Shown: one piece after another, positions 28,291 through 57,400 of the stretch
Position numbering within the stretch: position 1 is the first letter of the stretch
Layout: each line of letters starts with the position of its first letter
Source of the DNA: a virus
DNA length: 64,000 nt
Virus genome (UHGV): UHGV-1430452
Direction: 5' to 3' (one strand)
Translations under genes and position numbers: made by a program
The notes under the pieces: model-generated
Databases searched by the model: none
What the model saw: only the letters and a program-made list of their open reading frames with translations
What the model was told of the DNA's origin: nothing

Positions 28291-28626
28291 TTAAACATCA
28301 ACAGCCCCCGTATAGGAAGGCTGAGTTTTTAACCAATCGTATGCATTTTGAATTAGATCGCCTATAAGTAGTTTCTGAGCCTCATCCCATTCAATGCTAA
28401 GATAATCCATGTTGGTGTATGGAAAAGATGGCTCTCCTATGATTCTACCAGCCATATAATCCTTATCGTATTGACGACCTTCTTTATCAATGTACGATTC
28501 TACAATAATAGTAGCTCGCTGATTAATTTCTACGTTAATGGCGGCAATATGATGATAGCTTACTACTACACCATTAGCGGTTTTAATGTTTACTTCTATA
28601 GCCAAAATATCACTCCTAAACTCCAA
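28291..28626 (-). CDS. Small protein, paralog of 31069..31350; possible fibre assembly or accessory protein
   Basis: 111 aa; shared SYID and C-terminal LKT.P...GA.D with 31069..31350; each sits just after a fibre gene. Confidence 0.45.
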   Translation of the reverse strand: MEFRSDILAIEVNIKTANGVVVSYHHIAAINVEINQRATIIVESYIDKEGRQYDKDYMAGRIIGEPSFPYTNMDYLSIEWDEAQKLLIGDLIQNAYDWLKTQPSYTGAVDV

Positions 28627-43800: not shown

Positions 43801-46800
43801 CGACGTTAGTTCCGAAAGTCGCGAGGTCATCCCTGCCAGAGAACCAATCCATAACACCGCCTATAGGCTCCAATGACGATTGTAATTCGCTAAGTTTCGT
43901 TGCTACATTTATCACAGCGCCCATTGCCGCCTCGTCTATTGTGATTCCAGCAGAAGCTTGCGATATCGCTTTCATAGCATTGAAGAACGCAACACCATCG
44001 GTCTCAAACTTCTCCATAGAAGTACCACCGAGAGTGAATATGTCAGCGATAGAAGTACCAACTGTTGTAAATCCTATCTCTGCCATAGCACTCATTAAAT
44101 CGGACACGCCATCGAAAGATCCTGATTTAATACCACTAGCATTTTCGCTTGCTATAGCTAGTTTGTCCATGAAATCAGCAATATTTTGACCTATTTCCGG
44201 TAAACTTCCGGTAATACCTTCTCCGATTCCTCCTATGAATGCTCCGATTCCTTTGCCGATTGCGTTTCCTATTTTTCCTAATAATCCACCGCCAGCTTCA
44301 ACAAGGGACGAAAAACCTGGAATTTTAGATAACCCACCGATTGCTGCCAGAAGTACTGCTATCTCAGCTATTACAGCACCAACGGCTAATACTCCGGTCA
44401 TTGCTGGGCCGGCTAAAGCTCCAGCTCCGGCGAATACTTTCATCAATATTCCGATTACTCCGAATGCACCTATGCCTTTTAGCATAGTATCCATATCTAA
44501 ATTGCCTATCGAATCGACGATACCTTTGACAACTTGTCCGACAAAATTCATTATTGCCGATATTAATTCTGGAGTATGCTCGGCAAGACTATTAATAACT
44601 CCGATTATAAAACCGAGAAGTGAATCGACAATCTGTGGTGCATACTGTTCTAATGCGTCTAAAACGCCTAAGAGCAGTTTCAGAAAACTTTCAGCCAATT
44701 GAGGTGCATATTCTCCTATAACTTTTGCGATTTCGACGATACCTCGACCTATTACTTCAGCAATTTGTGGAATCAATCCTAAAATACCGGTGATTATAAC
44801 TGTTATTGATGCGACAAGCGCTGTGGCACCAGCAGTTCCAGCAGTAGCAAGAGCTGTGAATCCAGCTGATAGAGCAAGTATACCAACGCCAATTCCAGCT
44901 ATAGCTACAGCAAATATAGCCATCGCAGCGGATAAACCAAGTATTGCCGGAGTGAGTGGACTCAGAAGAGCTCCAGCTACTCCTATTACTACAAAGGCTC
45001 CAGCAAGAGTTACGAGACCTTTTACTATGCTCTCCCAACTCATAGATCCTAATGATTTCAATACAGGTGTTAAAATTGCTAATCCAGCAGCTGCAACAAC
45101 TAATGCGGCAGACCCCTTAAGAGATCCACTCATGGCTTTTAATCCAATAGATAGCTCGACCAAAGCTATTCCAAGTACAACGAGTCCTTTTCCTATACTC
45201 TCCCAGCTCATCGATCCTAATGATTTTAAGACTGGAGTTAATATAGCAAGTGCTGACGCCATCAAAAGCATTTGACCGCCGAACTTAGCGATAGATCCAC
45301 TACCCTTGCTCATAATTTTAGAAGCTAACACCAGCATTGTAACAATACCTAATATTCCAGCTCCACCTTTAGCTAATTCGTTCCAACTCATAGAACCCAA
45401 ACTCTTACCAACAGCAGCCAAAATGCCAACCGCAGCTGACATGATAAGCATCTGTCCAGCAAATTTGGTTATAGACTTACTTTCAGTATTCATGAGTTTG
45501 GCAGCACCAACTAATATAGCGACTATTCCTAATATTCCGGCCCCACCTTTGGCTAATTCTTCCCAACTCATTGAACTGAGAATTTTAGCGACTCCAGATA
45601 ACGCTGCTATTGCTGCTGATAATATAAGCATCTGTCCAGCAAATTTGGTTATAGACTTACTTTCGGTATTCATAAGTTTAGCAGCCGCGACGAGTATAGC
45701 TACCATTCCACCAATACCAACGAGGCCTTTTGCTACACCGTTCCAATCAAGTCCAGCTATAATTTTCATAGCGCCTGCTAATATAAGAATAGCTGCTCCG
45801 AGTCCAATCATCTGAACAGTTCTAGCTATACCTGACAAACTTGATACTATACCAGATAAAGGTTTGACACTTTTGCTGTTTATTTTTTCAAGCACTGCTA
45901 ATGCAGATATCAACTCTACAAACAAACCGCCTATTGCGCCTAAAGAACTTCCGAGTTTATCCTCGTCTATTCCAGATATGACAAAAAGAGCCGCTGCCAG
46001 TATTCCAATAGCACCCGCTATTTTTAGCAATGTTCCGGCTTTAAGATTCTGTTGCCATGATTCCAAACTTCCCTTAACGCCATCAAGTATTTTTTTAACG
46101 TTATCTAAGAAACTTATTTTTTCGAATGGATCAGATAATCCTTTAATAAAGTTTCTTATGGCTAGTAATATTCCAGCAAACAATCCGCTGTTTAATACTT
46201 CGAAAATATCGCCTTTACCAAAGGCATCGGCTATCATATTACCTATATCGGAAAAAGCTTCTCCGATGGCCGCGCCAACCGACTTTATAGTGTTCCATAG
46301 ACCGGAAAAGAAGCCAAGAAAACCTTGAAGTGTAGGAGAAATCTTAAAACTCTCAATAAGTGAGCGTCCAAACTCTGCTATTTTTGAAATCCCGTTGCTA
46401 AGAAATCCAACAATTTTATCAACTGCGTCGCCAAACAGATTTCCTTCTACTATGGAGTCTCTCACATTCGAGATAAAATCTCCAAAAGAACTCGTTGCAT
46501 CCAGTATTCCTCCACCAAGTCCGGTGAAGTTTCCAATAATATCTAGAGCGCCTTTTCCAACAGCTTTAAAAGCCTCTATAACAATATCGATAGCGGAAAA
46601 GATTCCTTTAAATGTAGATTTTATTTTAGATGCAGCGCCTTCACTTACTTTTAAAGTATCAGTGAAAGCTTTGAATCTATCAATCATACTTACTACTTGG
46701 TCGACTGTAGTAGGTGGAAATATCTCTCTAAAAGCTTCTTTTATCGGTTTTATTATATCTCCAAGGAATTTGAATATATTTTTCAAACCCTCTATAATTT

Positions 46801-48442
46801 TTTCTCTACCGCCAAGCTCGGTTATTCCATCGATAAGACCATCTATGTTGTCTTTTAATTTATTCGTAGATTCGTTTGCTTCATTTAGCGCTTTTAATGT
46901 AGCGTCATCAACGATACCTGTTATTTCTAAATCGTTAGCTTCCTGAAAAGCTTTAATAGCTGACTCTGTGGCACTTCCGAAAATTCCATCAGCACCAGAA
47001 TCGCCAATATCATAGTTAAGGCTTTGTAATGCTTTTTGTACTTTTGTTACGTCGTCTCCTGTATTACCTTTCGATAAACCGGCTTCGACTCCACTTAAAT
47101 CTACAAGTTCGCCTTTTAATCCGCTAACAGCTTCTTTTAAAATATCAGAAGATATGGCACCAGATTGAAAAGCTTTTTCTAGAGAACCATATTTTTTTAT
47201 GATCTCGTCCATATTAACGCCATGGTCCTCAGCAATCGATCTAACTTTTTCCTCAAAAGTATCGGTTTCTACACCAGCTTCATTTATTTTTTTTACAAGC
47301 TTATCCCAGTTAGAAGACATCGCGCCTTCCAATAATTCGTTACGAGATTTCGCTGATGATTCAACCATCTTTCCAATGGTATCTGAAATTCCAGTGAACA
47401 ATTCTTTGGAGTCTTCAAAATCACCGACAAGTATTCTCCAAGTTTGACCCCATCCAGATTGGAGAGATTCTTTTACCGTATCTATCAGCTGTGTGAATGT
47501 TTTTACTTTTGTAGCAGCGTCTTCAGCGTCCTTCGCTAAAGCCATAATATCGTTTGCTTGAGATTCGCTATAACCTTGGGCAATAAGATCGGCCTTACTA
47601 TATGCGCCAGACAATTGGTTAAGAGTTTCAGTTAATACCTCGGTCGTTAACCATTCACCTTTTGTTAGGCTTTCTCTAAAGCTGCCATATGTATCAATAG
47701 CTTGTTTAGCGCCTGTTCCCAAAAGTTCAGACGTTCTAACAAGTGCGTCCTGAAATACCTTACCACCCATACCGGCATTAACAACTGAGTTCCAGTCCAT
47801 AAGACTAACTTTACCTGCCGCCAATGCCTGAGAAAGCTGATACATCGCAGTAGATGCCTGTTGAGAAGTTGATCCAGAAACTGCGGCCAAGTTCGCAATA
47901 CCTTTAATAGCATTAACTGAGGTATCAAGTTTTACACCAGCTGCTGTAAACGTACCGATATTACGAGTCATTTCCGTAAAATTGTAAATCGTCTTATCGG
48001 CATATGTATTTAGCTCATCTAAAGCCTTATTTACAATATCAACATTAGTGCCTTCCTGCCTTGTATTGGATAGAATTGTCTGAATAGCACCAATCTGAGT
48101 TTCGTATTCTTGGAAACCGCTTTTAACCGGATCTATAGTTAATGCTGATATCATACGTTTACCAGTGTTAACAGCCTGGTTAGTGATGTTTGCTAAAGCA
48201 GTTACACCAGCGACCTGTAGTGCTGAAAATTTAGCCTGAACTGTCTCTATACCACTGCTCATTCCTGCAAAGCTAACACCTTTAGCAGCCTTACCGACAT
48301 TCTCCAACCCTTTGGAGGCACCAGATAGATTTAACTTTTGTTTGAGCTTATCGAGAGTTGACATACTGGTTGCGACTCCGCTCTCAAACTGCTTATTGTC
48401 GAACCGCATCTCCAAGACTCTGTTGTCAATAGTCGTACTCAT
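40895..48442 (-). CDS. Tail tape measure protein (2515 aa) with peptidoglycan-binding domain, hydrophobic segments and two internal repeat arrays
   Basis: TMP-like N-terminus; PG_binding_1-like GNTGDDVTKVQKALQSLNYDIGDSGADGIFGSATESAIKAFQ; repeated LQSSLEPIGGVISWFKGRDDLGTFG and SGVSNFKIGSIG units. Confidence 0.9.
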   Translation of the reverse strand: MSTTIDNRVLEMRFDNKQFESGVATSMSTLDKLKQKLNLSGASKGLENVGKAAKGVSFAGMSSGIETVQAKFSALQVAGVTALANITNQAVNTGKRMISALTIDPVKSGFQEYETQIGAIQTILSNTRQEGTNVDIVNKALDELNTYADKTIYNFTEMTRNIGTFTAAGVKLDTSVNAIKGIANLAAVSGSTSQQASTAMYQLSQALAAGKVSLMDWNSVVNAGMGGKVFQDALVRTSELLGTGAKQAIDTYGSFRESLTKGEWLTTEVLTETLNQLSGAYSKADLIAQGYSESQANDIMALAKDAEDAATKVKTFTQLIDTVKESLQSGWGQTWRILVGDFEDSKELFTGISDTIGKMVESSAKSRNELLEGAMSSNWDKLVKKINEAGVETDTFEEKVRSIAEDHGVNMDEIIKKYGSLEKAFQSGAISSDILKEAVSGLKGELVDLSGVEAGLSKGNTGDDVTKVQKALQSLNYDIGDSGADGIFGSATESAIKAFQEANDLEITGIVDDATLKALNEANESTNKLKDNIDGLIDGITELGGREKIIEGLKNIFKFLGDIIKPIKEAFREIFPPTTVDQVVSMIDRFKAFTDTLKVSEGAASKIKSTFKGIFSAIDIVIEAFKAVGKGALDIIGNFTGLGGGILDATSSFGDFISNVRDSIVEGNLFGDAVDKIVGFLSNGISKIAEFGRSLIESFKISPTLQGFLGFFSGLWNTIKSVGAAIGEAFSDIGNMIADAFGKGDIFEVLNSGLFAGILLAIRNFIKGLSDPFEKISFLDNVKKILDGVKGSLESWQQNLKAGTLLKIAGAIGILAAALFVISGIDEDKLGSSLGAIGGLFVELISALAVLEKINSKSVKPLSGIVSSLSGIARTVQMIGLGAAILILAGAMKIIAGLDWNGVAKGLVGIGGMVAILVAAAKLMNTESKSITKFAGQMLILSAAIAALSGVAKILSSMSWEELAKGGAGILGIVAILVGAAKLMNTESKSITKFAGQMLIMSAAVGILAAVGKSLGSMSWNELAKGGAGILGIVTMLVLASKIMSKGSGSIAKFGGQMLLMASALAILTPVLKSLGSMSWESIGKGLVVLGIALVELSIGLKAMSGSLKGSAALVVAAAGLAILTPVLKSLGSMSWESIVKGLVTLAGAFVVIGVAGALLSPLTPAILGLSAAMAIFAVAIAGIGVGILALSAGFTALATAGTAGATALVASITVIITGILGLIPQIAEVIGRGIVEIAKVIGEYAPQLAESFLKLLLGVLDALEQYAPQIVDSLLGFIIGVINSLAEHTPELISAIMNFVGQVVKGIVDSIGNLDMDTMLKGIGAFGVIGILMKVFAGAGALAGPAMTGVLAVGAVIAEIAVLLAAIGGLSKIPGFSSLVEAGGGLLGKIGNAIGKGIGAFIGGIGEGITGSLPEIGQNIADFMDKLAIASENASGIKSGSFDGVSDLMSAMAEIGFTTVGTSIADIFTLGGTSMEKFETDGVAFFNAMKAISQASAGITIDEAAMGAVINVATKLSELQSSLEPIGGVMDWFSGRDDLATFGTNVGQFIFSMKNAFLGLDGVSFNTEALTSIITGAAELSKLQSSLEPIGGVISWFKGRDDLGTFGESVGEFISSMKVAFSDLEGITLNTEGLTAIISATTILANLQSSLEPIGGVISWFKGRDDLGTFGTNVAQFIFSMKTAFQSLDGVEFNSEALTTIIDGSTKLAGLQSALEPIGGVISWFKGRDDLGTFGVNIGLFIGSMTKAFSSLDGVKINTEAIGIIIDAATKLSGLQSSLENIGGVVDWFTGRDDLGTFGSSVASFMGSMKTAFADLGDTKIDDDSITSIINAATKLAGLQSSLENMGGVIDWFTGKDDLGTFGENIGQFATAMGKLKTGMGEDGISEAVVTSVTNAGSAIIALQEALPEEGWFDGKMNLEEFSKYVEKFSSAMTTFSTDAANINSDGINTAITAAYRIKNLITALADLDASGVSSFAGVGAGDGHLVNIGQAIGKFGESVADIDIAKVNTAVSVALRLKSLIASLVGLDTSGIENFKINSIGKAMQDYGNSVKDMDPGIVSSSISSANRLRNFVSSLTGLDSSGVSNFKIGSIGTTLKSYSKSVENVDSGKVTSSVTAANRLKTFIQGLSSLDSSGVSNFKIGTIGSTLKSYSDSVAGINVGSISSSITAATKIKNFISSLAGLNTSGVASFKTAVSTLGQTSMNSITKSFSGSTSKMSNIGSNLITSFSNGLKSKQALVTSTATNIINSMLKAISSKRSVFGTNGVALMTQFVNGMRSRASSVVNTTTSILSSAVSSTRGYYSSFYSSGSYVASGFVAGIQANIWSAANAAASMAAAASAAARANLAIHSPSRVFMKIGSYVPIGFAKGIGMFGGLVKQSISRMSDNAVNSTQTAMSRISSLLDGDINTQPTIRPVLDLSDIKSGASAINGMLNGTPTLGVMSRLNTINSMMGERIQNGSMDDVVSAINRLRKDLGNVGGVSYNINGLTYDDGSNITEAVKEIVRAAVIERRI
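42800..43950. repeat. Tandem in-frame repeats of about 190 bp inside the tape measure gene
   Basis: Near-identical DNA blocks, e.g. around 43241 and 43610 (CCAAATGTGCCGAGGTCGTCTCTACCTTTAAACCAGCTTATTACTCC); boundaries approximate. Confidence 0.6.
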
Positions 48443-48816
48443 ATCTTAGTAACCTCCCTCCAGGCCTCTTCTGCCATTTTGTCAAAAATAGGCTGAATCG
48501 CAGGATTGATATAATCTCTCCCTTGAACCCAGCCTCCAGTACCAGTCCCATGACCATATTGCAAAATAATAGCGATTGGTACACCTTTATTAATGTTAGA
48601 GTTTGTAAAAGTAATCTTTGCTGATCCGGATGTATTCTCAATTTCGTATCCCCACGATTTAGCAGTCAATCCAGATTCTACAGGAGTAGCAGACATAAGA
48701 GCAGCCACCCCTTCCCGACCATATTTGTCGAGTACGCTGAGCTTTGCATTCCCTTTAAGTTTCTCAAAATATCGAGTAACTTTAGAGAAGTCTCCCTTAT
48801 GTCTGAAACTAATCAT
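48439..48816 (-). CDS. hypothetical protein, tail-module
   Basis: 125 aa immediately upstream of the tape measure gene. Confidence 0.5.
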   Translation of the reverse strand: MISFRHKGDFSKVTRYFEKLKGNAKLSVLDKYGREGVAALMSATPVESGLTAKSWGYEIENTSGSAKITFTNSNINKGVPIAIILQYGHGTGTGGWVQGRDYINPAIQPIFDKMAEEAWREVTKI

Positions 48817-48831
48817 TTTGATCTTTCTCCT

Positions 48832-50550
48832 TTACAGTAGCTCGTTAACTCGATCCTGAATTTTCTGAATCATGTTGTGATCGTATCCAGCTTTTGCGAG
48901 GGCATTAATTCGTGCATCTCCATTACCGTATTTTCCGGCAATGACATCACGGGCTACATTATCAATCACTATCTGATTTACTTTCTTCTGCACAGTGTCT
49001 GGATTATAACCAGCTTTCTTGAGAGCAGACACACGAGCATCACCATTACCCCATTTTCCAGCTAAAACCTCTTTAGCTACTTCATCGATAGATTTAGTAG
49101 GTTTTGCAGGAGCTTTAAGTAGTTCATTCACTTTCTTCTGTACAGTGTCTGGATTATAACCAGCTTTCTTGAGAGCAGACACACGAGCATCACCATTACC
49201 CCATTTTCCAGCTAAAACCTCTTTAGCTACTTCATCGATAGATTTAGTAGGTTTTGCAGGAGCTTTAAGTAGTTCATTCACTTTCTTCTGTACAGTGTCT
49301 GGATTATAACCAGCTTTCTTGAGAGCAGACACACGAGCATCACCATTACCCCATTTACCGGCGATTACTTCTTTAGCAATTTCATCGATAGATTTGGTCG
49401 GTTTTGGCGTAGATGTAGGTTTAGATGTTGGTGCTGGTGTGGAAGAACTTTTCGCATATTTTGGTCTAGCAAAACCACGAATCATACCCCAGCCAACCGG
49501 AATGGTACGTCTTGCTACTGCTTCTCCTCTGTTACCTTCAATCGCTGTGATTTGTCCGTTTGAAACAGATTCCACATACCCGATATGATCAGAATATCCG
49601 TCGTTTGGCTGAGTCTTATCATCCCAGTTATAAACAATTACATCACCAGGTTTCGGAGTAATGGTGCCGTCCTCGACCCAAATGCCTTTCTGCTTAAAAA
49701 TCTTAATATGTTCCTCACAACCAACTTCTGTACCGATGAGATCGACTGCTCCGGATTTGATAGCTGCTGCTGATACTGTACAATCACACCATTCATCATT
49801 AGGTTTAATAGCGTATCCGCGAGCCAAAGGTTTGTGAGAATTATAGATGTTAAGAATCTCAATATATTTACCGTTAGCTTCAGAATAACCGAGCCAACTT
49901 CTCATAACATTAAGAACGTCCTGTGCTGTTACACCCAATTCCGTATCCTCCTGTTTTCCGTAAAAATAGTTCATGTCGACTTTACCTTTAATACCGCCTA
50001 CAGTTCCGGAACTCGTATACTGATGAACCAAACAACCGTAATCTGCTTTTCCGTTATAATCAGCGAGCCAGAATTTGTACTGTTTAATCAGATCATGATT
50101 ATACCAATTTCGATAGTAGTCGATATTTGCGTAGATTCCAGCTTTGTATCCCTGAGATTCTACGTACTCACAAAAGATTCTTGTAAAGTTATTACATTCA
50201 TTTTTACCAAGTCTCACACCTTTTGCAGCTGCTTTCTTGACTGTGTCATATTCGAAATCTGCGAAGATGATTGTGTTTTTATCAAGACCAGCTTTTCTAA
50301 CAACATCAACACAGAATTTTGCTTCGTCAAGTGCGCCCTGTTCGTTTAAGGCATAAATAAAATGGTAAGTTCCTATAATCGGAATCTTGTTGTTTTTACA
50401 CCCATTGACATACTCATAGAATTTTGAATCTACTGTCTTCCTGTAAGAAGATCTAAGAATCGCGAACTCTATTCCGGAGGACTTGACTTTAGAAAAATCT
50501 ACATCTCCCTGCCAATAGCTGATATCAATTCCTTTCTTCACAATCATCAT
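48832..50550 (-). CDS. Endolysin: GH25 muramidase + Cys/His peptidase domain (CHAP or NlpC/P60-like) + tandem CW_7 cell-wall-binding repeats
   Basis: 572 aa; GH25-like GIDISYWQG; Cys...His block; repeated IDEVAKEVLAGKWGNGDARVSALKKAGYNPDTVQKKVNELL. Confidence 0.88.
   Translation of the reverse strand: MMIVKKGIDISYWQGDVDFSKVKSSGIEFAILRSSYRKTVDSKFYEYVNGCKNNKIPIIGTYHFIYALNEQGALDEAKFCVDVVRKAGLDKNTIIFADFEYDTVKKAAAKGVRLGKNECNNFTRIFCEYVESQGYKAGIYANIDYYRNWYNHDLIKQYKFWLADYNGKADYGCLVHQYTSSGTVGGIKGKVDMNYFYGKQEDTELGVTAQDVLNVMRSWLGYSEANGKYIEILNIYNSHKPLARGYAIKPNDEWCDCTVSAAAIKSGAVDLIGTEVGCEEHIKIFKQKGIWVEDGTITPKPGDVIVYNWDDKTQPNDGYSDHIGYVESVSNGQITAIEGNRGEAVARRTIPVGWGMIRGFARPKYAKSSSTPAPTSKPTSTPKPTKSIDEIAKEVIAGKWGNGDARVSALKKAGYNPDTVQKKVNELLKAPAKPTKSIDEVAKEVLAGKWGNGDARVSALKKAGYNPDTVQKKVNELLKAPAKPTKSIDEVAKEVLAGKWGNGDARVSALKKAGYNPDTVQKKVNQIVIDNVARDVIAGKYGNGDARINALAKAGYDHNMIQKIQDRVNELL
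48981..49430. repeat. Three near-identical 150-bp tandem repeats (plus one divergent copy upstream) encoding the CW_7 repeats
   Basis: CTTTCTTCTG(C/T)ACAGTGTCTGGATTATAACCAGCTTTCTTGAGAGCAGACACACGAGCATCACC units at about 48981, 49132 and 49282. Confidence 0.8.
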
Positions 50551-51646: not shown

Positions 51647-52312
51647 TTACGCACCTGTCGTAGTTTTCATCATAGTAGCAACCTCATCCGGGAGTGGAAG
51701 TCTTGCTTCTGTATCCTCGTCACCGTAAAGAACTGCCTCCAGTGCTGCCAGTTTAGTTGGATCAGCTGTGGTAGAGTCGATTATGAGATGAGATGTAGGT
51801 TTGAAATTAGCTACAGATACCGGAGTAGTACTACACTCCCAGGACATAGTAGCCGCTTCCGGACTATCATTTACAGTCGCACGAGATACTTCGGAAGGAG
51901 CTGCAAGAGCACCGTATACCAGATGCAGTTTGTAACCATGTGATTCGCCCTCTGTATCATTACCAATAAGGCTTCGATAAGATAAACCGAAATTTTTACG
52001 TTTCTGCTGTCCAATCTTAACGCCGGTTGCAATTTCTCCTTCACCGTTACATTCTGCGAATTCATCGGGATACATATAAGCTTCGATTGTGAAACCAAAT
52101 TCCTCAGCGGACATAAGTGTCACATACTTAATGTTATCTGCATAGAGCGGTGTCGGTTCTGCTCCAGATGGTGATTCTGTTACAGCTGTAAGACCATTCC
52201 ATGCTGCTCCTTTCGGATAGTTTCCATCAGTTCCCATTGGATAAATTACGCCATGATCGACGCCAGTTTCAAACAAACGTTCGCCTGTTGCGTCCCATAC
52301 AAGTTTAGCCAT
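51647..52312 (-). CDS. Putative major tail (tube) protein
   Basis: 221 aa; between head-tail connector genes and the chaperone. Confidence 0.55.
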   Translation of the reverse strand: MAKLVWDATGERLFETGVDHGVIYPMGTDGNYPKGAAWNGLTAVTESPSGAEPTPLYADNIKYVTLMSAEEFGFTIEAYMYPDEFAECNGEGEIATGVKIGQQKRKNFGLSYRSLIGNDTEGESHGYKLHLVYGALAAPSEVSRATVNDSPEAATMSWECSTTPVSVANFKPTSHLIIDSTTADPTKLAALEAVLYGDEDTEARLPLPDEVATMMKTTTGA

Positions 52313-52326
52313 ATTTGATTTCCTCC

Positions 52327-52647
52327 TTAATAATATAGCGTTAATACATCGTGATTGAGATTATCGGCTTTATACAGCCTATCGTAAGAGCAGTATGGAA
52401 GTTCCATAAGCTTCTGTATAACAGGATTATCCGGTAATTTACTAATCACGGTAATGTCATATTTCCTACGTGTTAAATATGTTGAGTTGTTAGCTTTCAT
52501 GGTTTCGATATCACTTAATGAATACACAATAGCTGGATAACTCATTTGAAGTGACGCTGGGGGTTGATAGAAAACCTGGTTACTACCAAGAAGTTCTTCA
52601 AGTTTCGCTTGTAGTTCTAATCTACTAGCCACGCCACACACCCCCAA
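52327..52647 (-). CDS. Putative head-tail connector/completion protein
   Basis: 106 aa; position. Confidence 0.45.
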   Translation of the reverse strand: MGVCGVASRLELQAKLEELLGSNQVFYQPPASLQMSYPAIVYSLSDIETMKANNSTYLTRRKYDITVISKLPDNPVIQKLMELPYCSYDRLYKADNLNHDVLTLYY

Positions 52648-52942
52648 TCGATAATATCAGTCTAGGATACTGAACTTCGACGTCTGTCACTTTCCATTTC
52701 TCATTTGAGAATTCAATCCAAGTCATGGCAGATACATGATCTCTGGCGTAGGGATCGGCCACTATACTAATCTGGTTTGAGATATTAATATCATCGTTAA
52801 CGTTTCCAGAATTCTGCCGTTTCCACCGATTGCTCATGATATCACCAAAATACTGACGTTCGACGATTTCATCTTCTATCCAGACACCAGGCTCAACCTC
52901 GCCAGTATAAGTAAATCCGATCTTCCCACACCATTTATTCAT
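52625..52942 (-). CDS. Putative head-tail adaptor/head closure protein
   Basis: 105 aa; first gene after the capsid gene. Confidence 0.45.
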   Translation of the reverse strand: MNKWCGKIGFTYTGEVEPGVWIEDEIVERQYFGDIMSNRWKRQNSGNVNDDINISNQISIVADPYARDHVSAMTWIEFSNEKWKVTDVEVQYPRLILSIGGVWRG

Positions 52943-52966: not shown

Positions 52967-54904
52967 TTAGGCAGTTTCTTTCACGAATTCAAGAGCTACT
53001 GCGGAATACGGTTTAACAAGTGTACCGGAGCAACGTGTCTCCATAAGATACTTCTGCTTGTTGTAATCGATATCGAAATCATCGAAGAAGTTGATTTCTC
53101 CACCCTTATCTGTACCTACGTTGTAATCTTTAAGATTTACATAGATACCAGCAAGCTCATATGTCTTATTTTCATCGTCTGTTCTTGTAAGACCTTCCAT
53201 TACCGGAACCGGAACGATTTCTCTTACGCGAAGAGATGCTGCAAGTTTCTGTACGCTATCATAGATAACACGTCCGTTTGTATCTTCAATGAGCAAGCAA
53301 TCTGTAAGCATATCCTCAGACATGAACATATCAGGGTTGCCAGATCCTTTATAATTCTTTCTGGATTTGATGCAAGCTTTGATGAATGCCTTAGCTTTCT
53401 CTTCAGCAGTAGCGGAATCGCTTACATTGATAGCTGCTTTAACTGTGAAAAGATCTTCCATCTTCCAGATAGGTCTGATGCAGTCCTCATTGATTTTATC
53501 GTTAGCCTCTTCAACCGGATCTCTTCCATCACCGATAAGGAATGCGCGAGCAAGTTCCTCATCAAGCATCATACGAACTTCTCTCTTCAGCCATGGAAGA
53601 ATATCGAAATCTGTAATATCAAGCATGTCATCGCGATCTAATGCCTGTTTCTTGTATACAGTTGTTGGATTTGTTACACGTTTGAGAAGCTTAAATACTT
53701 CTTCAATTTTAAGTTTGCCTTTCTGGTATCCCTTTGCTCTAGCCTGTGCTGCTGTGATGTCAGCAAAGATAGTTTTGATACGGGAGAACGGTGTGTGATG
53801 TACTCCGCCAAGTACTTTTGATACCCAATCGTCATTACGTTTGATAAATTCCGGTTCATTGTTAAGATTCTTTGCATCCGGGAATAAGATGTCAATGTCT
53901 GTGATACCATGAGCAAGCACTGCCTCTTTAAGAGAACCTGAGCGTTTCGCATCTTCGAAAATCGCAGTCATCTCGGAGTGTGTAAGCACATCATCTGCCA
54001 TAGGGGTTTCATTGTCGAATACGTTGTGTTTCATATTTTTGTTTCCTCCTTCATTTTCATCATCTTCTTCGGTTTCAACACCAGCATCTTCTAATGCCTG
54101 TCCGATCATAGCGTACACAACAGTTTTCTGTTTCTCAGAAAGAGTGTTGAATACATCAGCTACAGTTTCTTCTTTGTTTTCTCCCTTTGTTTCTTCCTCG
54201 GCATGTTTTACTTCTTCCTCAGAATGGGTTACTTCTTCTTTGTCTGGTTTATCATCGTTTTCTTCTTTGATACCAGCATCTTCTAATGCCTGTCCGATCA
54301 TAGCGTACACAACAGTTTTCTGTTTTTCAGAAAGAGTGTTGAATACATCAGCTACAGTTTCGTCCTTATTTTCTTCGGCATTATGTTTTTTGGTTTCTTC
54401 TGCCATTTTTTCTTCTCCTTTCTCAGAAGTATCTGCGTGGAACAATGACTCCACATTTTCGATATATTCGCCTGAGCTGATATATCCCTCTTCATAAGAA
54501 TCTTCGCCATGCATCATGACAGACTCTATTACTGCGCCTGGATTAGCACCAGCTAAAACCAAACTAAGCTCACGAATGACTCCGTGAACTACATTACTTC
54601 CCTGCTGTTTAAGTCTGTTGGCATATATGGAAAATCTATTCACATCACCATGCTGAACCAGCAATTTAGCATTCTGCCCTGATTCCGTATCGTTAAATGT
54701 GCAATATGCATACACACCTTCGTCCCTGTTTTCCAGCAAGGCATGACCGAGCACTTCATCTACGCTATTATGCTGATGATTCCAAACTAACGGTACAGTT
54801 TCACCATCGCACTCTTTGAATGCATCTTTCATGATGACTCTACCGTCCGCACACAGCATGTCAGCTTTAGTAGCCCAGCCAGAACAATCATATGACTTAG
54901 CCAT
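52967..54904 (-). CDS. Fusion of prohead protease-like domain, acidic scaffold-like duplicated linker and HK97-fold major capsid protein
   Basis: 645 aa; N-terminal S78-like block (WNHQH...VLG...GDVNRFSIY); duplicated EETVADVFNTLSEKQKTVVYAMIGQALEDAG; C-terminal 370 aa is the only capsid-sized candidate. Confidence 0.65.
   Translation of the reverse strand: MAKSYDCSGWATKADMLCADGRVIMKDAFKECDGETVPLVWNHQHNSVDEVLGHALLENRDEGVYAYCTFNDTESGQNAKLLVQHGDVNRFSIYANRLKQQGSNVVHGVIRELSLVLAGANPGAVIESVMMHGEDSYEEGYISSGEYIENVESLFHADTSEKGEEKMAEETKKHNAEENKDETVADVFNTLSEKQKTVVYAMIGQALEDAGIKEENDDKPDKEEVTHSEEEVKHAEEETKGENKEETVADVFNTLSEKQKTVVYAMIGQALEDAGVETEEDDENEGGNKNMKHNVFDNETPMADDVLTHSEMTAIFEDAKRSGSLKEAVLAHGITDIDILFPDAKNLNNEPEFIKRNDDWVSKVLGGVHHTPFSRIKTIFADITAAQARAKGYQKGKLKIEEVFKLLKRVTNPTTVYKKQALDRDDMLDITDFDILPWLKREVRMMLDEELARAFLIGDGRDPVEEANDKINEDCIRPIWKMEDLFTVKAAINVSDSATAEEKAKAFIKACIKSRKNYKGSGNPDMFMSEDMLTDCLLIEDTNGRVIYDSVQKLAASLRVREIVPVPVMEGLTRTDDENKTYELAGIYVNLKDYNVGTDKGGEINFFDDFDIDYNKQKYLMETRCSGTLVKPYSAVALEFVKETA
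54089..54365. repeat. Direct repeat of about 90 bp (two copies) inside the protease-capsid fusion gene
   Basis: CTTCTAATGCCTGTCCGATCATAGCGTACACAACAGTTTTCTGTTT(C/T)TCAGAAAGAGTGTTGAATACATCAGCTACAGTTTC at about 54089 and 54279. Confidence 0.7.
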
Positions 54905-54943: not shown

Positions 54944-55279
54944 TTAAACCGAAGCAGTGAAAGTAACAGCTGTTGAACTTCCATCACTAGCGATAAGACC
55001 AGTAGACTTAAGGCATACCGGTTTGTAATATGTATCTGTCATGTAAACAGTTACTCCTTTAAGGAATAACTCCTGGAGATCTTCCTTCATGACTTTCTCC
55101 GCTTTTGCTTCCTTATCGTAGAACAGAACTTTTGAAGAATTTGCATATAAAACAACTGTTTTTACAAACTTTTCATCATATGCTGCATTAACTGTTTCTC
55201 TTTTAGCCATAATTATTTTCCTCCATTTGTTAATAATGTGTATTGTTTCACAATCATAGGTCCGAAATTGGTGTGTCAC
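54944..55279 (-). CDS. hypothetical head-module protein (true start may be the internal MAKRETV...)
   Basis: 111-aa ORF overlapping the portal 3' end. Confidence 0.4.
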   Translation of the reverse strand: MTHQFRTYDCETIHIINKWRKIIMAKRETVNAAYDEKFVKTVVLYANSSKVLFYDKEAKAEKVMKEDLQELFLKGVTVYMTDTYYKPVCLKSTGLIASDGSSTAVTFTASV

Positions 55280-56525
55280 CTAATGAGGGTTCTTCCTCTG
55301 GTGGAATATCTTCTTCACTTATATCCGGAGTTGGATTCAATCCAGTTCCTGTTTGATTGATGTTGCTATTTACTAACTGGTCAGCTTTTGGATCATCTGA
55401 TGGTTTCATACCAATAATCTGTCGAACCTCATTAGCTGTAAGTATTTCATTCTGCGTAAACACTCCAGCGATTTCAGCCAGTTTACTAAGAGGAACGAGT
55501 CTAAACGAATCTCTGAAGAATTTGATAGTCTGATTCTGAGATCGTGCTGTCTTTGTTAAAAACTTGCGTTTCATCTCATCGACGATTGCTGCGACAATTG
55601 GCTCAATAGTCCTTGAATAGTAGTTCAGCATTTCTTCTTCGCTCGCTGATCCATCGAGTATCGCCTGTGTGATTCCAAGCTGGCTGTATAGTTGAGCAGT
55701 TAGATATTCCACTTGTTTCATCAGGTTATTGTCGAGAGGTCTGTTTAACTGCACTATCTTTTCAGTTCCATCAACATAGCCAATACCGTAAGTGGAACCG
55801 CTTAGCTGTTGCTCCAGGTCCGCACGTCTTTCATTAGCTAGTTTTCGCCGAGCTTCAGATTTAATAGAATATGGTAGCTGAATAATCATGTCCAATTTTC
55901 CACTACTGATACGTTCGTCCATTCTATCGAGAAGGGCAAGTTTTCGCGTAAGACGCTGCATGGTAGAATTATGCTCATTGATAACCGCATATAAAGGATT
56001 CTCAACTATAGCTACCATTTTCTTTTCAAGCTTAATGTCTTCTCGTTCTCCTGTTCGTTCATTGTAAACTCTAACTTTCACATGGTTTGGATACCATTCA
56101 AGAATTTTACCAGTTCGCATGGAAAGTATTTTATATGATTCAGTTTGAGATGGATCTATATCTGTATCAACAGGAACTATTGCTACACAGCCCTCGTCAA
56201 GCATAGACATAACGATATCTTGTGTGAATGCTCTACCAGTCTGATCGATATTCGCTTCAAGATTCAGACATTTATTAAGAGTCGAATCAATCTTTTCTAT
56301 AAATCTACCGTTACTGTCTATACGACAGTGATTAATATTTATAGAAGAGACATCCAAAGCTATTCGATTAAAAATAGCAGTAACAACAGATCGCTCATTA
56401 CCCCTAGTGAATCTCGGCCTATCCGGTCTATTTGAATATCCTGGACCAATGTTACGAGAGTCATATGTCGGATCTCGGTTCATGAAAGCATTCCACGAAT
56501 GCCGAAGTCTATCTATAAAATCCAT
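55254..56525 (-). CDS. Portal protein
   Basis: 423 aa; between terminase and capsid/protease; acidic C-terminus. Confidence 0.7.
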   Translation of the reverse strand: MDFIDRLRHSWNAFMNRDPTYDSRNIGPGYSNRPDRPRFTRGNERSVVTAIFNRIALDVSSININHCRIDSNGRFIEKIDSTLNKCLNLEANIDQTGRAFTQDIVMSMLDEGCVAIVPVDTDIDPSQTESYKILSMRTGKILEWYPNHVKVRVYNERTGEREDIKLEKKMVAIVENPLYAVINEHNSTMQRLTRKLALLDRMDERISSGKLDMIIQLPYSIKSEARRKLANERRADLEQQLSGSTYGIGYVDGTEKIVQLNRPLDNNLMKQVEYLTAQLYSQLGITQAILDGSASEEEMLNYYSRTIEPIVAAIVDEMKRKFLTKTARSQNQTIKFFRDSFRLVPLSKLAEIAGVFTQNEILTANEVRQIIGMKPSDDPKADQLVNSNINQTGTGLNPTPDISEEDIPPEEEPSLGDTPISDL

Positions 56526-56539
56526 TTTGATTTTACCTC

Positions 56540-57136
56540 CTATGGTGTTGATGGATTAAGACTTTCAGCGATTTTAGCGTCTATGTATGAATGTATTTCA
56601 GCTATATCCGCTTCCGTCCAATAATCAGTACCTCTGACAGGTGTCTTCCCATCAGTACCAGGATCTCCTTTTGGTCCAGCATCACCAGTATCACCTTTTG
56701 GTCCCTGAACACCCTGTTCACCTTGAGGTCCGGTTAATCCTGTATCTCCCTTTGGACCCTGAATACCTTGTTCACCTTGAGGTCCAGTAGCTCCGGTATC
56801 ACCTTTTGGTCCCTGGATACCCTGTTCACCTTTCGGGCCTGTAGCTCCGGTATCACCTTTCGGACCTTTAAGACTAGCTAACCATTCAGTCTCGCTTCCT
56901 TCGAAACCAGTAGAAAGCGCTACTTGATAAGCAGAATCACCTGGATCTCCTTTTTCACCAGGAGGGCCAGGAGTGGTTGAACCAGTTCCTCCGTTAGTAA
57001 TGAGCTCGCATAATTCCCAAAGCAATTCTTCAGCTCTAGACTGAGGTCTCGGCAATCCTTCAGTACCTTTCTGTAAGATAGTATTTTTCATATATTCTTC
57101 AAATCTACTATCCGGTATGTATGTTTCATCGATCAT
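56540..57136 (-). CDS. Collagen-like repeat protein (G-x-y triple-helix repeats)
   Basis: 198 aa; GPKGDTGATGPKGEQGIQGPKGDTGATGPQGEQGIQGPKGDTG... Confidence 0.7.
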   Translation of the reverse strand: MIDETYIPDSRFEEYMKNTILQKGTEGLPRPQSRAEELLWELCELITNGGTGSTTPGPPGEKGDPGDSAYQVALSTGFEGSETEWLASLKGPKGDTGATGPKGEQGIQGPKGDTGATGPQGEQGIQGPKGDTGLTGPQGEQGVQGPKGDTGDAGPKGDPGTDGKTPVRGTDYWTEADIAEIHSYIDAKIAESLNPSTP

Positions 57137-57154: not shown

Positions 57155-57400
57155 TTAGAGTTCAATTCCTTCAATGGCTGCTCTTACCTCAAGACATCTG
57201 AGATACTCGCCCATGTAACGTTTCTGCTCCTGAAGTTTTGCTATCGGGCAAGTTGGTTTGAAGTCGAGAACTCCTGCTTCATGTTTTACAAGCATCTGAT
57301 GTAATTTGTCATATCGAATCTTTGTCTGATAATACTCAGCTTTAAAACGATCTTTATAATCGGAACTATTCATAAGTTCAATCGTGTCTTTTAACTCCAT
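57155..57400 (-). CDS. hypothetical protein
   Basis: 81 aa; RBS AAGGAGG. Confidence 0.45.
   Translation of the reverse strand: MELKDTIELMNSSDYKDRFKAEYYQTKIRYDKLHQMLVKHEAGVLDFKPTCPIAKLQEQKRYMGEYLRCLEVRAAIEGIEL

What the first reader, a model, noticed from the sequence alone, without database searches (positions are those of the whole stretch)
52967..54904. Prohead protease, scaffold-like acidic linker and major capsid protein fused in one ORF
The N-terminal 140 aa resemble HK97-type prohead protease. This is followed by an acidic region with an exact internal duplication (EETVADVFNTLSEKQKTVVYAMIGQALEDAG twice, matching a 90-bp direct DNA repeat) and then a capsid-sized C-terminal domain. No separate capsid or protease gene is present in the head module. 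This suggests a self-processing capsid precursor.
Basis: partly seen in the sequence, partly recalled or inferred. Interest (0 to 1): 0.5.

Follow-up and report, generated by a model that had tools for sequence, protein, structure and literature searches.

The report
Protease–capsid fusion gene with nested starts
This phage gene joins the head-maturation protease, an acidic scaffold-like tether and the major capsid protein in one reading frame, which is an already catalogued family, but a ribosome-binding site and start codon conserved inside it suggest the capsid protein is also made on its own.

Summary
A 645-codon ORF lies on the minus strand at 52967-54904. It has an HK97-type (S78) protease domain with the catalytic His and Ser conserved. 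Next comes an acidic, disordered linker carrying a 30-aa motif twice, then an HK97-fold capsid domain.

This is not new. [quoted passage not shown] 243 GenBank phage records match over at least 80% of its length.

Codon 291 (ATG 54034) is preceded by GAAGGAGG plus a 10-nt A-rich spacer, the same form as this phage's strongest ribosome-binding sites. In every homolog checked that codon is ATG, GTG or TTG, with a Shine-Dalgarno sequence upstream. It is the only such position among the 645 codons, and glycine codon choice there is biased to preserve the motif.

Rare natural relatives carry a stop codon just upstream, and their stand-alone capsid gene starts at this same codon.

Best reading: 3'-coterminal nested genes, in the logic of lambda C/Nu3. 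They give a protease-tether-capsid polyprotein plus free capsid protein, and possibly a third product from Met167. No protein data were available, so the two products are inferred.

The parts
52967..54904 (-). Full 645-codon ORF encoding the protease - acidic tether - major capsid protein polyprotein. Its own Shine-Dalgarno sequence, AAAAAGGAGG, lies at 54926-54917.
   Evidence: PHROG 3270 matches at E 5e-224. tblastn finds 243 phage records covering at least 80% of the protein.
54515..54904 (-). HK97-type (S78) prohead protease domain, about aa 1-130. The catalytic His43 codon is 54778-54776 and the Ser92 codon is 54631-54629.
   Evidence: Pfam PF04586. hhalign against HK97 gp4 maps gp4 H65 to H43 and S114 to S92. 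Both residues are invariant in 63 homologs. AlphaFold2 gives a beta-rich fold with pLDDT 70-86.
54035..54514 (-). Acidic, mostly disordered tether of about aa 131-290 that carries the two helical motifs.
   Evidence: 29% Asp+Glu. pLDDT is below 50 for aa 118-182, 213-246 and 275-305. Its length varies widely between homologs but always stays in frame.
54272..54361 (-). Motif copy 1, aa 182-211 (ETVADVFNTLSEKQKTVVYAMIGQALEDAG), predicted as a short helix followed by a 17-residue helix.
   Evidence: This copy is absent from the 581-583-aa variants; P0002 is 99.8% identical to the query apart from an exact 64-aa deletion.
54080..54169 (-). Motif copy 2, aa 246-275. It is the copy kept in the single-copy close relatives, and at least one motif copy is present in every homolog examined.
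   Evidence: In the natural split variants L209 and L222 the last motif copy forms the extreme C-terminus of the separate protease-scaffold protein.
54045..54051 (-). Internal Shine-Dalgarno sequence AAGGAGG, encoded by Glu285-Gly286-Gly287, 10 nt upstream of ATG 54034.
   Evidence: It is conserved in 98% of aligned homologs while the encoded residues vary. Glycine codons in this window are GGA in 70 of 78 cases against 25% elsewhere. It has the same form as the strongest ribosome-binding sites in the window.
52967..54034 (-). Nested in-frame cistron Met291-Ala645, a 355-aa major capsid protein. It has N-terminal helices at aa 309-331 and the HK97-fold body at about aa 355-645.
   Evidence: The start codon is ATG, GTG or TTG in every homolog checked. 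Foldseek matches the RcGTA, T5 and HK97 capsids with probability 1.0. Stand-alone capsid genes in L209 and L222 start at the homologous codon.
54404..54421 (-). Candidate second internal start: AAAGGAG (54421-54415) plus ATG for Met167 (54406-54404). It would give a 479-aa tether-capsid product.
   Evidence: A strong Shine-Dalgarno sequence plus start codon occurs at this linker position in 32 of 54 homologs, against 6.1 +/- 2.1 in codon-shuffled linkers. In L223 and L224 a separate gene starts here as 'MAEKTV...'. It is not universal.

Best explanation
The ORF belongs to the known 'major capsid and protease fusion' family of siphophages. It is best read as a set of 3'-coterminal nested genes.

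Proposed mechanism:
1. Translation from ATG 54904 gives a 645-aa polyprotein. This consists of an S78 serine protease (His43/Ser92), an acidic disordered tether with two helical motifs, and an HK97-fold capsid protein.
2. A conserved internal ribosome-binding site (AAGGAGG, a 10-nt spacer, then ATG 54034) gives the 355-aa capsid protein alone.
3. A weaker, non-universal site at Met167 may give a tether-capsid form.
4. The capsid moiety of the long form co-polymerises with free capsid protein. This places the protease and the helical motifs inside the procapsid, where the motifs are presumed to act as scaffold or coat-binding elements.
5. The protease then cuts away the tether and itself, leaving a shell of capsid protein.

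Shown here:
- the domain architecture and the conserved catalytic residues;
- the HK97 fold of the C-terminal domain;
- conservation of the internal Shine-Dalgarno sequence and start codon;
- an open frame maintained across the family;
- natural split variants that start at the same codons.

Inferred:
- that both products are actually made, and in what ratio;
- co-assembly of the two forms;
- the cleavage sites;
- the scaffold role of the motif.
For: Family membership:
- PHROG 3270 matches at E 5e-224.
- The fusion is described in PMC5513430, PMC7302621 and bioRxiv 10.1101/2020.01.10.891226.

Protease: the HK97 gp4 catalytic residues H65 and S114 align to the invariant H43 and S92.

Capsid fold: the AlphaFold model with Foldseek, and TIGR01554.

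Internal start at codon 291:
- Among all 645 codon positions scanned in 55 sequences (the query plus 54 homologs at 45-66% identity), only position 291 combines a start codon in 100% with strong anti-SD pairing. Its mean pairing energy is -10.6 kcal/mol against a gene-wide -2.1 +/- 2.6.
- In a wider set the codon is ATG in 60 loci and GTG in 8.
- In 15 named phages from two host phyla it is ATG in 11, GTG in 2 and TTG in 2.
- GGAG or GAGG lies 5-17 nt upstream in 55 of 60 sequences, against 6.3% of other in-frame start codons.
- Glycine codons in the SD window are GGA in 70 of 78 cases, against 590 of 2320 elsewhere (p = 9e-32).
- Where the window has no glycine, glutamate codons are GAG 21 to GAA 7, against 262 to 265 elsewhere.
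- In 55 aligned sequences the -30..+20 window is among the least structured 6% of windows in the gene.
- The site has the same form as this phage's strongest ribosome-binding sites.

Natural split variants:
- L209 was seen in two samples. L222 is 76% identical to it, with a different spacer and frame.
- Both have a stop codon after the last motif, followed by AAGGAG and then a stand-alone capsid gene beginning M-K-x-N-A-F.
- L223 and L224 split after the protease domain (which retains one motif copy), at the position of the Met167-type start.
Against: - There is no protein-level evidence of any kind: no N-terminal sequence, mass spectrometry or ribosome profiling for any member. The papers most likely to hold it (Garneau 2008 on phage 1706; Summer 2011 on ReqiPepy6) could not be read.
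- The upstream residues are often Glu-Gly-Gly. Part of the nucleotide conservation could therefore reflect conserved amino acids, for example a cleavage site.
- The pooled GAG versus GAA comparison was not significant.
- In actinophage members the Shine-Dalgarno sequence is only GAAGG, with pairing energy of -5.7 to -8 kcal/mol.
- The homologs are phylogenetically related, so the p-values overstate independence.
- A T=7 to T=9 procapsid could physically hold a protease and tether on every subunit, so geometry does not force a second product.
- The AlphaFold model is only moderate overall (mean pLDDT 65, pTM 0.44).
Confidence: 0.68

Rival explanations
1. Pure polyprotein. Only the 645-aa product is made, and every capsid subunit enters the procapsid carrying its own protease and tether. 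Autoproteolysis then releases the mature capsid protein. The internal Shine-Dalgarno-like sequence is a by-product of a conserved Glu-Gly-Gly...Met-Lys-His-Asn-Val-Phe peptide, for example a cleavage or docking site.
For: - The frame is open in every one of 80 IMG/VR loci and in 109 of 109 informative pattern hits.
- None of the 90 listed GenBank rows annotates a nested capsid CDS.
- The peptide after Met291 (K-H-N-V-F-D/E) is itself conserved, so protein-level constraint exists in this region.
Against: - The amino acids upstream vary (EGG, KGG, EEE, DEE, DGG, NEE) while GGAG(G) is kept.
- Glycine codon choice is biased to GGA.
- Wherever Met is replaced, the codon is GTG or TTG: 8 GTG among the IMG/VR loci plus 2 GTG and 2 TTG among the named phages.
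- Split variants translate their essential capsid protein from exactly this site.
Confidence: 0.22
2. Functionally separate genes. The capsid protein is made only, or essentially only, from Met291. The read-through fusion to the protease-tether is a neutral consequence of a lost stop codon and has no role.
For: Split variants (L209, L222, L223/L224) exist in at least three diverged forms, and two of those forms were each recovered from two samples. The covalent link is therefore dispensable in some lineages.
Against: - The linker is rich in insertions and deletions and highly variable in length.
- It nevertheless stays in frame without a stop across Firmicutes and Actinobacteria phages down to 35% identity.
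- A neutral fusion would be broken often, yet split forms are rare exceptions.
Confidence: 0.07
3. Assembly or sequencing artefact. A frameshift or missing stop codon falsely joins two genes in this window.
For: None specific. L210 and L225 show that single-base frame changes do occur in A-rich runs of some assemblies.
Against: At least 8000 database proteins at 90% clustering have the same architecture. So do 565 representatives at 50% clustering with E <= 1e-30 and finished phage genomes.
Confidence: 0.01

Closest known systems
[quoted passage not shown]
   Same: - Full-length homology at 35-63% identity.
- The same order of S78 protease, acidic linker with the TV-D-V-F...VY-MIG-AL-E motif, and HK97-fold capsid domain.
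- The same place in the genome, after the portal gene and before DUF7253 and the tail genes.
- The same internal start codon with an upstream GAAGG(AGG).
   Different: - The window protein lacks the roughly 60-100-aa C-terminal extension of the actinophage and lactococcal members.
- Its two motif copies are almost identical at DNA level.
- It comes from an uncultured, probably Firmicutes-infecting gut phage whose relatives lie on contigs of up to about 98 kb.
HK97 gp4 protease plus gp5 (delta domain fused to the capsid protein)
   Same: The same protease family with the catalytic His and Ser, the same capsid fold, and a scaffold function placed N-terminal to the capsid protein and removed by the protease. 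This last point is established for HK97 and inferred here.
   Different: - In HK97 the protease is a separate gene that is targeted non-covalently.
- Here it is in frame with the capsid protein.
- The linker is acidic and disordered with short helical motifs, not a coiled-coil delta domain.
- hhalign of the family against gp5 itself found nothing. The capsid relationship rests on Pfam, TIGR01554 and the fold search.
Nested 3'-coterminal assembly genes: lambda C/Nu3, Mu I/Z, herpesvirus UL26/UL26.5 (cited from general knowledge)
   Same: A long product carries the protease at its N-terminus. An in-frame internal start gives a more abundant shorter product with the same C-terminus. The shared C-terminal module carries the protease into the procapsid.
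   Different: In those systems the shared module is the scaffolding protein. Here it is the major capsid protein itself, so the protease would be delivered as a capsid subunit. Expression of the short product is inferred here, not demonstrated.
Unrelated small-genome protease-scaffold-capsid fusions (Arthrobacter cluster AN, Microbacterium cluster EE, Rhodococcus phage RRH1)
   Same: The same three functions are reported fused in one gene (PMC5513430, PMC7302621).
   Different: [quoted passage not shown] They were not examined here, so it is unknown whether they also carry internal starts.

Membership tests
[quoted passage not shown] | Full-length sequence homology to named members | tested here: met
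   PHROG 3270 matches at E 5e-224. tblastn covers at least 80% of the protein in 243 phage records at 35-63% identity.
[quoted passage not shown] | Protease and capsid domains in one uninterrupted reading frame | tested here: met
   A single 645-codon ORF with no stop or frameshift.
[quoted passage not shown] | Position in the head module, after the portal gene and before the connector and tail genes | tested here: met
   The portal gene is at 55254-56525. [quoted passage not shown] Phage 1706 and FP_oengus show the same order.
HK97-family prohead serine protease (MEROPS/Pfam S78) | Profile match above the curated threshold | tested here: inconclusive
   Pfam PF04586 scores 27.7 bits against a 21-bit cutoff, so that test is met. 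NCBIfam TIGR01543 scores 27.9 against a cutoff of 59, so that test is not met. hhalign against HK97 gp4 gives E 4.8e-5.
HK97-family prohead serine protease (MEROPS/Pfam S78) | Catalytic His and Ser (HK97 gp4 H65 and S114; residue numbers from general knowledge) conserved | tested here: met
   They align to H43 and S92, both invariant in 63 homologs.
HK97-family prohead serine protease (MEROPS/Pfam S78) | Proteolytic activity and cleavage of the capsid precursor | not testable with these tools
   Needs biochemistry or mass spectrometry.
HK97-fold major capsid protein | Profile match above the curated threshold | tested here: met
   PF05065 scores 24.2, equal to its cutoff, for the whole ORF and 26.1 for the nested product. 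TIGR01554 scores 34.8 against a cutoff of 27.5.
HK97-fold major capsid protein | HK97 fold | tested here: met
   The AlphaFold2 body at aa ~440-645 has pLDDT 80-92. Foldseek against the PDB finds RcGTA 6tb9 (E 5e-9), T5 8zvi and HK97 2gp1/8cfa, with probability 1.0 and TM-score normalised to the target of 0.43-0.55.
Nested 3'-coterminal assembly genes (lambda C/Nu3 type) | Conserved in-frame internal ribosome-binding site and start codon | tested here: met
Nested 3'-coterminal assembly genes (lambda C/Nu3 type) | Both long and short polypeptides are actually produced | not testable with these tools
   Only indirect support: split relatives must translate their capsid protein from the homologous site.
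Nested 3'-coterminal assembly genes (lambda C/Nu3 type) | The shared C-terminal module is the scaffolding protein | tested here: not met
   The shared module is the HK97-fold capsid protein. The gene works like this class but is not a member of it.

The most novel reading that the evidence does not exclude
The widely annotated 'major capsid and protease fusion' gene is not a simple polyprotein. It is a two- or three-product nested gene: protease-tether-capsid, optionally tether-capsid, and capsid alone. Translation initiation at conserved in-frame ribosome-binding sites sets the ratio of protease and scaffold to capsid protein. The protease is delivered as a minority capsid subunit. Single mutations can convert this arrangement into HK97-like or lambda-like split gene layouts. 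I found no nested capsid CDS in the 90 GenBank phage rows listed here, and no mention of an internal start in the searchable literature.
Probability: 0.6. Interest if true: 0.6.

Novelty: new member of a known kind. Interest (0 to 1): 0.42.

Why it matters
The fusion itself is ordinary. It is a catalogued family, and this is one more member from an uncultured gut phage.

If the internal start is real, three things follow.
- It would resolve how a phage whose only capsid gene is fused to a protease sets the ratio of capsid protein to protease and scaffold.
- It would add a capsid-anchored variant to the nested-gene logic of lambda C/Nu3 and herpesvirus UL26/UL26.5.
- It would show that the hundreds of GenBank records in this family may be missing a capsid CDS.

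It also gives a simple evolutionary route between fused and split head-gene layouts. Because the internal ribosome-binding sites are already present, one nonsense or frameshift mutation in the tether yields a viable split arrangement.

Tried and rejected
- **PDB sequence search.** The full protein found nothing at E <= 1.
- **hhalign against HK97 gp5.** The family alignment gave no match. The capsid assignment therefore rests on Pfam, TIGR01554 and Foldseek.
- **Motif and N-terminal segment.** Pfam scans of the motif-bearing linker and of aa 291-426 at E <= 10 gave only sub-threshold noise. The motif has no named family.
- **RNA structure.** Folding around the internal start in the window gave z = -0.31, so no regulatory hairpin.
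- **Frameshifting.** No canonical slippery heptamer lies near the internal Shine-Dalgarno sequence, and the spacer sequence is not conserved. I rejected programmed frameshifting.
- **GAG versus GAA.** The pooled comparison in the SD window was not significant. It became significant only for homologs with no glycine there.
- **First ORF extraction.** My regular expression missed 26 of the 80 loci. tblastn showed all 26 carry one continuous match, so none is split.
- **Ambiguous split candidates.** L210 and L225 look split, but through single-base frame changes in A-rich runs, so I did not count them. L211-L213 are truncated contigs.
- **Literature.** Ten searches found descriptions of the fusion but no mention of an internal start. 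Summer 2011 was not held, nor was a 2026 HFTV1 ribosome-profiling preprint, and Garneau 2008 never appeared in the searches.
Full report
**1. The observation**

The minus-strand ORF 52967..54904 encodes 645 aa. Its start is preceded by AAAAAGGAGG at 54926-54917.

- Pfam places Peptidase_S78 on aa 17-94 (27.7 bits, cutoff 21). It places Phage_capsid on aa 422-639 (24.2 bits, exactly at the cutoff).
- Residues 151-300 are 29% Asp+Glu.
- The repeated peptide is ETVADVFNTLSEKQKTVVYAMIGQALEDAG, 30 aa, exact at aa 182 and aa 246.
- The two 90-nt cores differ by one synonymous base. The extended DNA repeat is 127 nt at 90% identity with 192-nt spacing.
- Between the large terminase (57490-59223) and the major tail protein (51647-52312), no other ORF matches a capsid or protease family.

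**2. What the domains are**

*Protease.* A profile of 63 homologs aligns to HK97 gp4 at E 4.8e-5 (query aa 3-127 to gp4 22-156). The catalytic His65 and Ser114 of gp4 (residue numbers from general knowledge) fall on His43 and Ser92. Both are invariant in the 63-sequence alignment.

*Structure.* An AlphaFold2 model built on that alignment has mean pLDDT 65.

| Residues | Prediction |
|---|---|
| 1-117 | beta-rich domain, pLDDT 70-86 |
| 118-182, 213-246, 275-305 | disordered |
| 184-209 and 248-273 | each motif copy forms a short helix plus a 17-residue helix |
| 309-331 | two helices |
| ~355-645 | alpha/beta body, pLDDT 80-92 over most of aa 440-645 |

*Capsid fold.* Foldseek against the PDB returns only HK97-fold shells at probability 1.0. 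The hits include the RcGTA capsid 6tb9 (E 5e-9), T5, HK97 prohead II, Gordonia phage Cozz and encapsulins. NCBIfam TIGR01554 (major_cap_HK97) scores 34.8 against a cutoff of 27.5.

**3. It is a known family**

- PHROG 3270 matches almost end to end at E 5e-224.
- tblastn against 50,697 phage records finds 244 records, 243 of them covering at least 80% of the protein. They comprise Arthrobacter (95), Gordonia (55), Streptomyces (54), Lactococcus (13), Curtobacterium, Rhodococcus, Microbacterium and Faecalibacterium phages. [quoted passage not shown]
- Named members include Lactococcus phage 1706 ORF10 ('putative capsid protein/putative protease'), FP_oengus gp71 and ReqiPoco6 gp026.
- The literature calls the fusion an 'unusual feature' of Arthrobacter clusters AM/AU (PMC5513430). 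It is also noted for Microbacterium cluster EL, and the unrelated cluster EE has an equivalent fusion (PMC7302621).
- One preprint states that the protein combines capsid, protease and scaffold in one (10.1101/2020.01.10.891226).
- Another links the Streptomyces BI, Arthrobacter, Rhodococcus, Lactococcus 1706-like and Faecalibacterium phages as one deep lineage (10.1101/842583).
- The protein database holds at least 8000 clusters at 90% identity. It holds 565 representatives at 50% identity with E <= 1e-30.
- The closest relatives are unannotated metagenome proteins (98% identity) on contigs of up to about 98 kb.

**4. The repeat**

The motif is a family feature, not a peculiarity of this phage.

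- Of 120 close homologs, 106 carry two copies and 14 carry one.
- Among distant named members, Gordonia Fazel, ReqiPoco6 and Arthrobacter Gordon have two copies. Phage 1706, P162, FP_oengus, Circum and DrGrey have one.
- In many two-copy relatives the two copies have diverged from each other. Here they are nearly identical, which points to recent homogenisation.
- P0002 (581 aa) is 99.8% identical to the window protein apart from an exact 64-aa deletion with a recombinant junction. Copy number is therefore polymorphic between near-identical phages.
- No Pfam family matches the motif.

**5. The internal start: the main new point**

Reading the sequence shows GAA GGA GGA AAC AAA AAT ATG at codons 285-291. 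That is AAGGAGG, a 10-nt A-rich spacer, then ATG at 54034.

*It matches this phage's own ribosome-binding sites.* The form is the same as the strongest sites in the window. Examples are the major tail protein (ttaaggaggaaatcaaatATG), the portal gene and the ORF's own start. Its anti-SD pairing energy is -11.7 kcal/mol, against a median of -8.7 for 36 genes in the window.

*It is the single outlier in the gene.* I took 80 IMG/VR loci at 45-66% identity. I scored anti-SD pairing upstream of every one of the 645 aligned codons in 55 sequences, the query plus 54 extracted ORFs.

- Position 291 is the only outlier. Its mean energy is -10.6 kcal/mol against a gene-wide -2.1 +/- 2.6.
- 98% of sequences score at or below -8.5 kcal/mol there, and 100% have a start codon.
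- The next unrelated position averages -7.2.

*The start codon is always a start codon.*

- In a wider set the codon is ATG in 60 loci and GTG in 8.
- In 15 named phages from Firmicutes and Actinobacteria hosts it is ATG in 11 and GTG in 2 (FP_oengus, Curtobacterium AddiRose). It is TTG in 2 (both Lactococcus phages). All 15 have GAAGG 8-13 nt upstream.

*The nucleotide motif outlasts the amino acids.*

- The encoded residues upstream vary (EGG, KGG, EEE, DEE, DGG, NEE) while GGAG(G) is retained.
- Glycine codons in the SD window are GGA in 70 of 78 cases, against 590 of 2320 elsewhere (p = 9e-32).
- Where there is no glycine, glutamate is GAG 21 times to GAA 7, against 262 to 265 elsewhere (p = 0.011).
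- In the high-GC actinophage genes the motif uses GAA, although GAA is only a third of their glutamate codons.
- GGAG or GAGG lies 5-17 nt upstream in 55 of 60 sequences, against 6.3% of other in-frame start codons.

*The site is accessible and sits at a domain boundary.*

- In 55 aligned sequences the -30..+20 window is among the least structured 6% of windows in the gene.
- Met291 lies in a predicted disordered segment, about 18 residues before the first helix of the capsid part.

These p-values overstate independence because the sequences are related. Synonymous sites are saturated at this divergence, however, and the result holds across two host phyla.

**6. Natural experiments**

*The fused state dominates.*

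- All 80 loci give one continuous tblastn match.
- Of 118 loci found with the DNA pattern for MKHNVF(D/E), 109 have 200-350 open in-frame codons upstream. Six are cut by contig ends and three are chance hits.
- Almost all of the top 150 representatives are 560-790 aa, with the capsid match beginning at residue 200-400.

*Rare split relatives exist.*

- **L209** is a 31-kb contig seen in two samples. It has a portal gene, then a 357-aa protease plus acidic linker with five motif copies ending ...FRFMLGQALQYNE. A TAA stop follows, then aaggagaaattcaaaATG and a stand-alone 354-aa capsid gene beginning MKVNAF. The downstream genes are the same as in the window: DUF7253, TAC_17 and the tape measure protein.
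- **L222** is a second version at 76% identity. It has a different spacer, and its capsid gene lies in a different frame.
- **L223 and L224** come from two independent sequencing runs. A 209-aa protease gene that still carries one motif copy is followed by a 434-aa gene beginning MAEKTV(motif)...GEEEMKHNAFE. This is the HK97-like layout of a protease gene plus a delta-capsid gene.

In these lineages the essential capsid protein must be translated from the homologous site. The same Shine-Dalgarno sequence and start codon are kept, under codon-level constraint, in the fused majority. Since they persist across such deep divergence, they are unlikely to be decaying relics of formerly separate genes.

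**7. A possible third product**

Met167 (ATG 54406-54404) is preceded by AAAGGAG at -8.7 kcal/mol. It sits at the protease-linker boundary in the context K-x-E-x-K-[M/V]-A-[D/E].

- A strong Shine-Dalgarno sequence plus start codon occurs in this part of the linker in 32 of 54 non-redundant homologs. Codon-shuffled linkers give 6.1 +/- 2.1, with a maximum of 14.
- It coincides with the split point in L223/L224.
- It is absent from many homologs, so I rate it as plausible but optional.

**8. Mechanism**

Shown:
- the domain architecture and the conserved catalytic residues;
- the HK97 fold;
- the conserved internal ribosome-binding site;
- an open frame maintained despite a linker rich in insertions and deletions;
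- split variants at the same codons.

Inferred:
- The long product is necessarily made by ribosomes that start at Met1, because no stop codon intervenes.
- The short product is made from Met291.
- The two co-assemble through the shared capsid domain, which places the protease and motifs inside the procapsid.
- The motifs act as scaffold or coat-binding helices. Their position at the extreme C-terminus of the separate protease-scaffold protein in L209 and L222 fits that role, by analogy with C-terminal coat-binding elements of scaffolding proteins (general knowledge).
- The protease then removes the tether and itself.
- The mature N-terminus is unknown. TIGR01554 alignment positions suggest that the equivalent of the HK97 mature N-terminus lies near aa 335.

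**9. Comparison and verdict**

As an object, this is a new and unremarkable member of a known family. It works like lambda C/Nu3, Mu I/Z or herpesvirus UL26/UL26.5, in which nested 3'-coterminal genes deliver a protease. It is not a member of that class, because the shared module is the capsid protein rather than a scaffold.

I found no nested CDS in the 90 GenBank rows listed. Ten literature searches found no mention of an internal start. The nested-gene reading may therefore be either unreported or simply not visible to me.

- Confidence in family membership: about 0.95.
- Confidence in functional internal initiation at codon 291: about 0.7.
- Confidence in the whole mechanism as stated: 0.68.

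Noticed in passing
window 48832-50550 (-) and 40895-48442 (-): A 572-aa lysin (GH25 + CHAP + four CW_7 repeats) sits inside the tail module, separated from the 2515-aa tape measure protein only by a 125-aa ORF (48439-48816). The tape measure protein itself carries a PG_binding_1 domain. In relative L209 the tape measure protein carries CW_7.
   Followed up: partly
window 54404-54421 (-): A second candidate in-frame start, AAAGGAG plus ATG for Met167, at the protease-linker boundary. A strong Shine-Dalgarno sequence plus start codon occurs there in 32 of 54 homologs against about 6 expected. It matches the split point of L223 and L224.
   Followed up: yes
window 54056-54374 (-); protein P0002: The 192-nt repeat unit varies in copy number. 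P0002 is 99.8% identical to the window protein but lacks exactly one 64-aa unit. Fourteen of 120 close homologs carry a single copy.
   Followed up: yes
window 56540-57136 (-) and 28616-31048 (-): A 198-aa collagen-repeat (Gly-X-Y) protein lies between the large terminase and the portal gene. An 810-aa protein elsewhere in the window also carries collagen repeats.
   Followed up: no
window 57155-57400 (-): An 81-aa protein matching Pfam crAss001_48 (E 2e-20) lies between the terminase gene and the collagen-like gene.
   Followed up: no
window 59267-62081 (-): Three consecutive genes (190, 378 and 352 aa) upstream of the terminase each begin with the short DUF7211 N-terminal motif. DUF7211 genes occupy a similar position in relatives L210, L214 and L225.
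   Followed up: no
L214 4001-6388 (NCBI GCA_016852305.1 contig): One relative has a 563-aa protease-capsid fusion gene and also a second capsid paralog of 795 aa. The paralog begins with the linker motif and ends in a GDSL lipase/esterase domain.
   Followed up: partly
window 52327-52942 (-): Only two small genes, DUF7253 (105 aa) and a tail-terminator-like gene (106 aa), separate the capsid gene from the major tail protein gene. The usual head-tail connector set is not found at this position.
   Followed up: no
window 54944-55279 (-): A 111-aa ORF with no family match lies between the portal gene and the fusion gene. Its GTG start overlaps the 3' end of the portal gene, so the real start may be the internal Met (MAKRETV...).
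   Followed up: no
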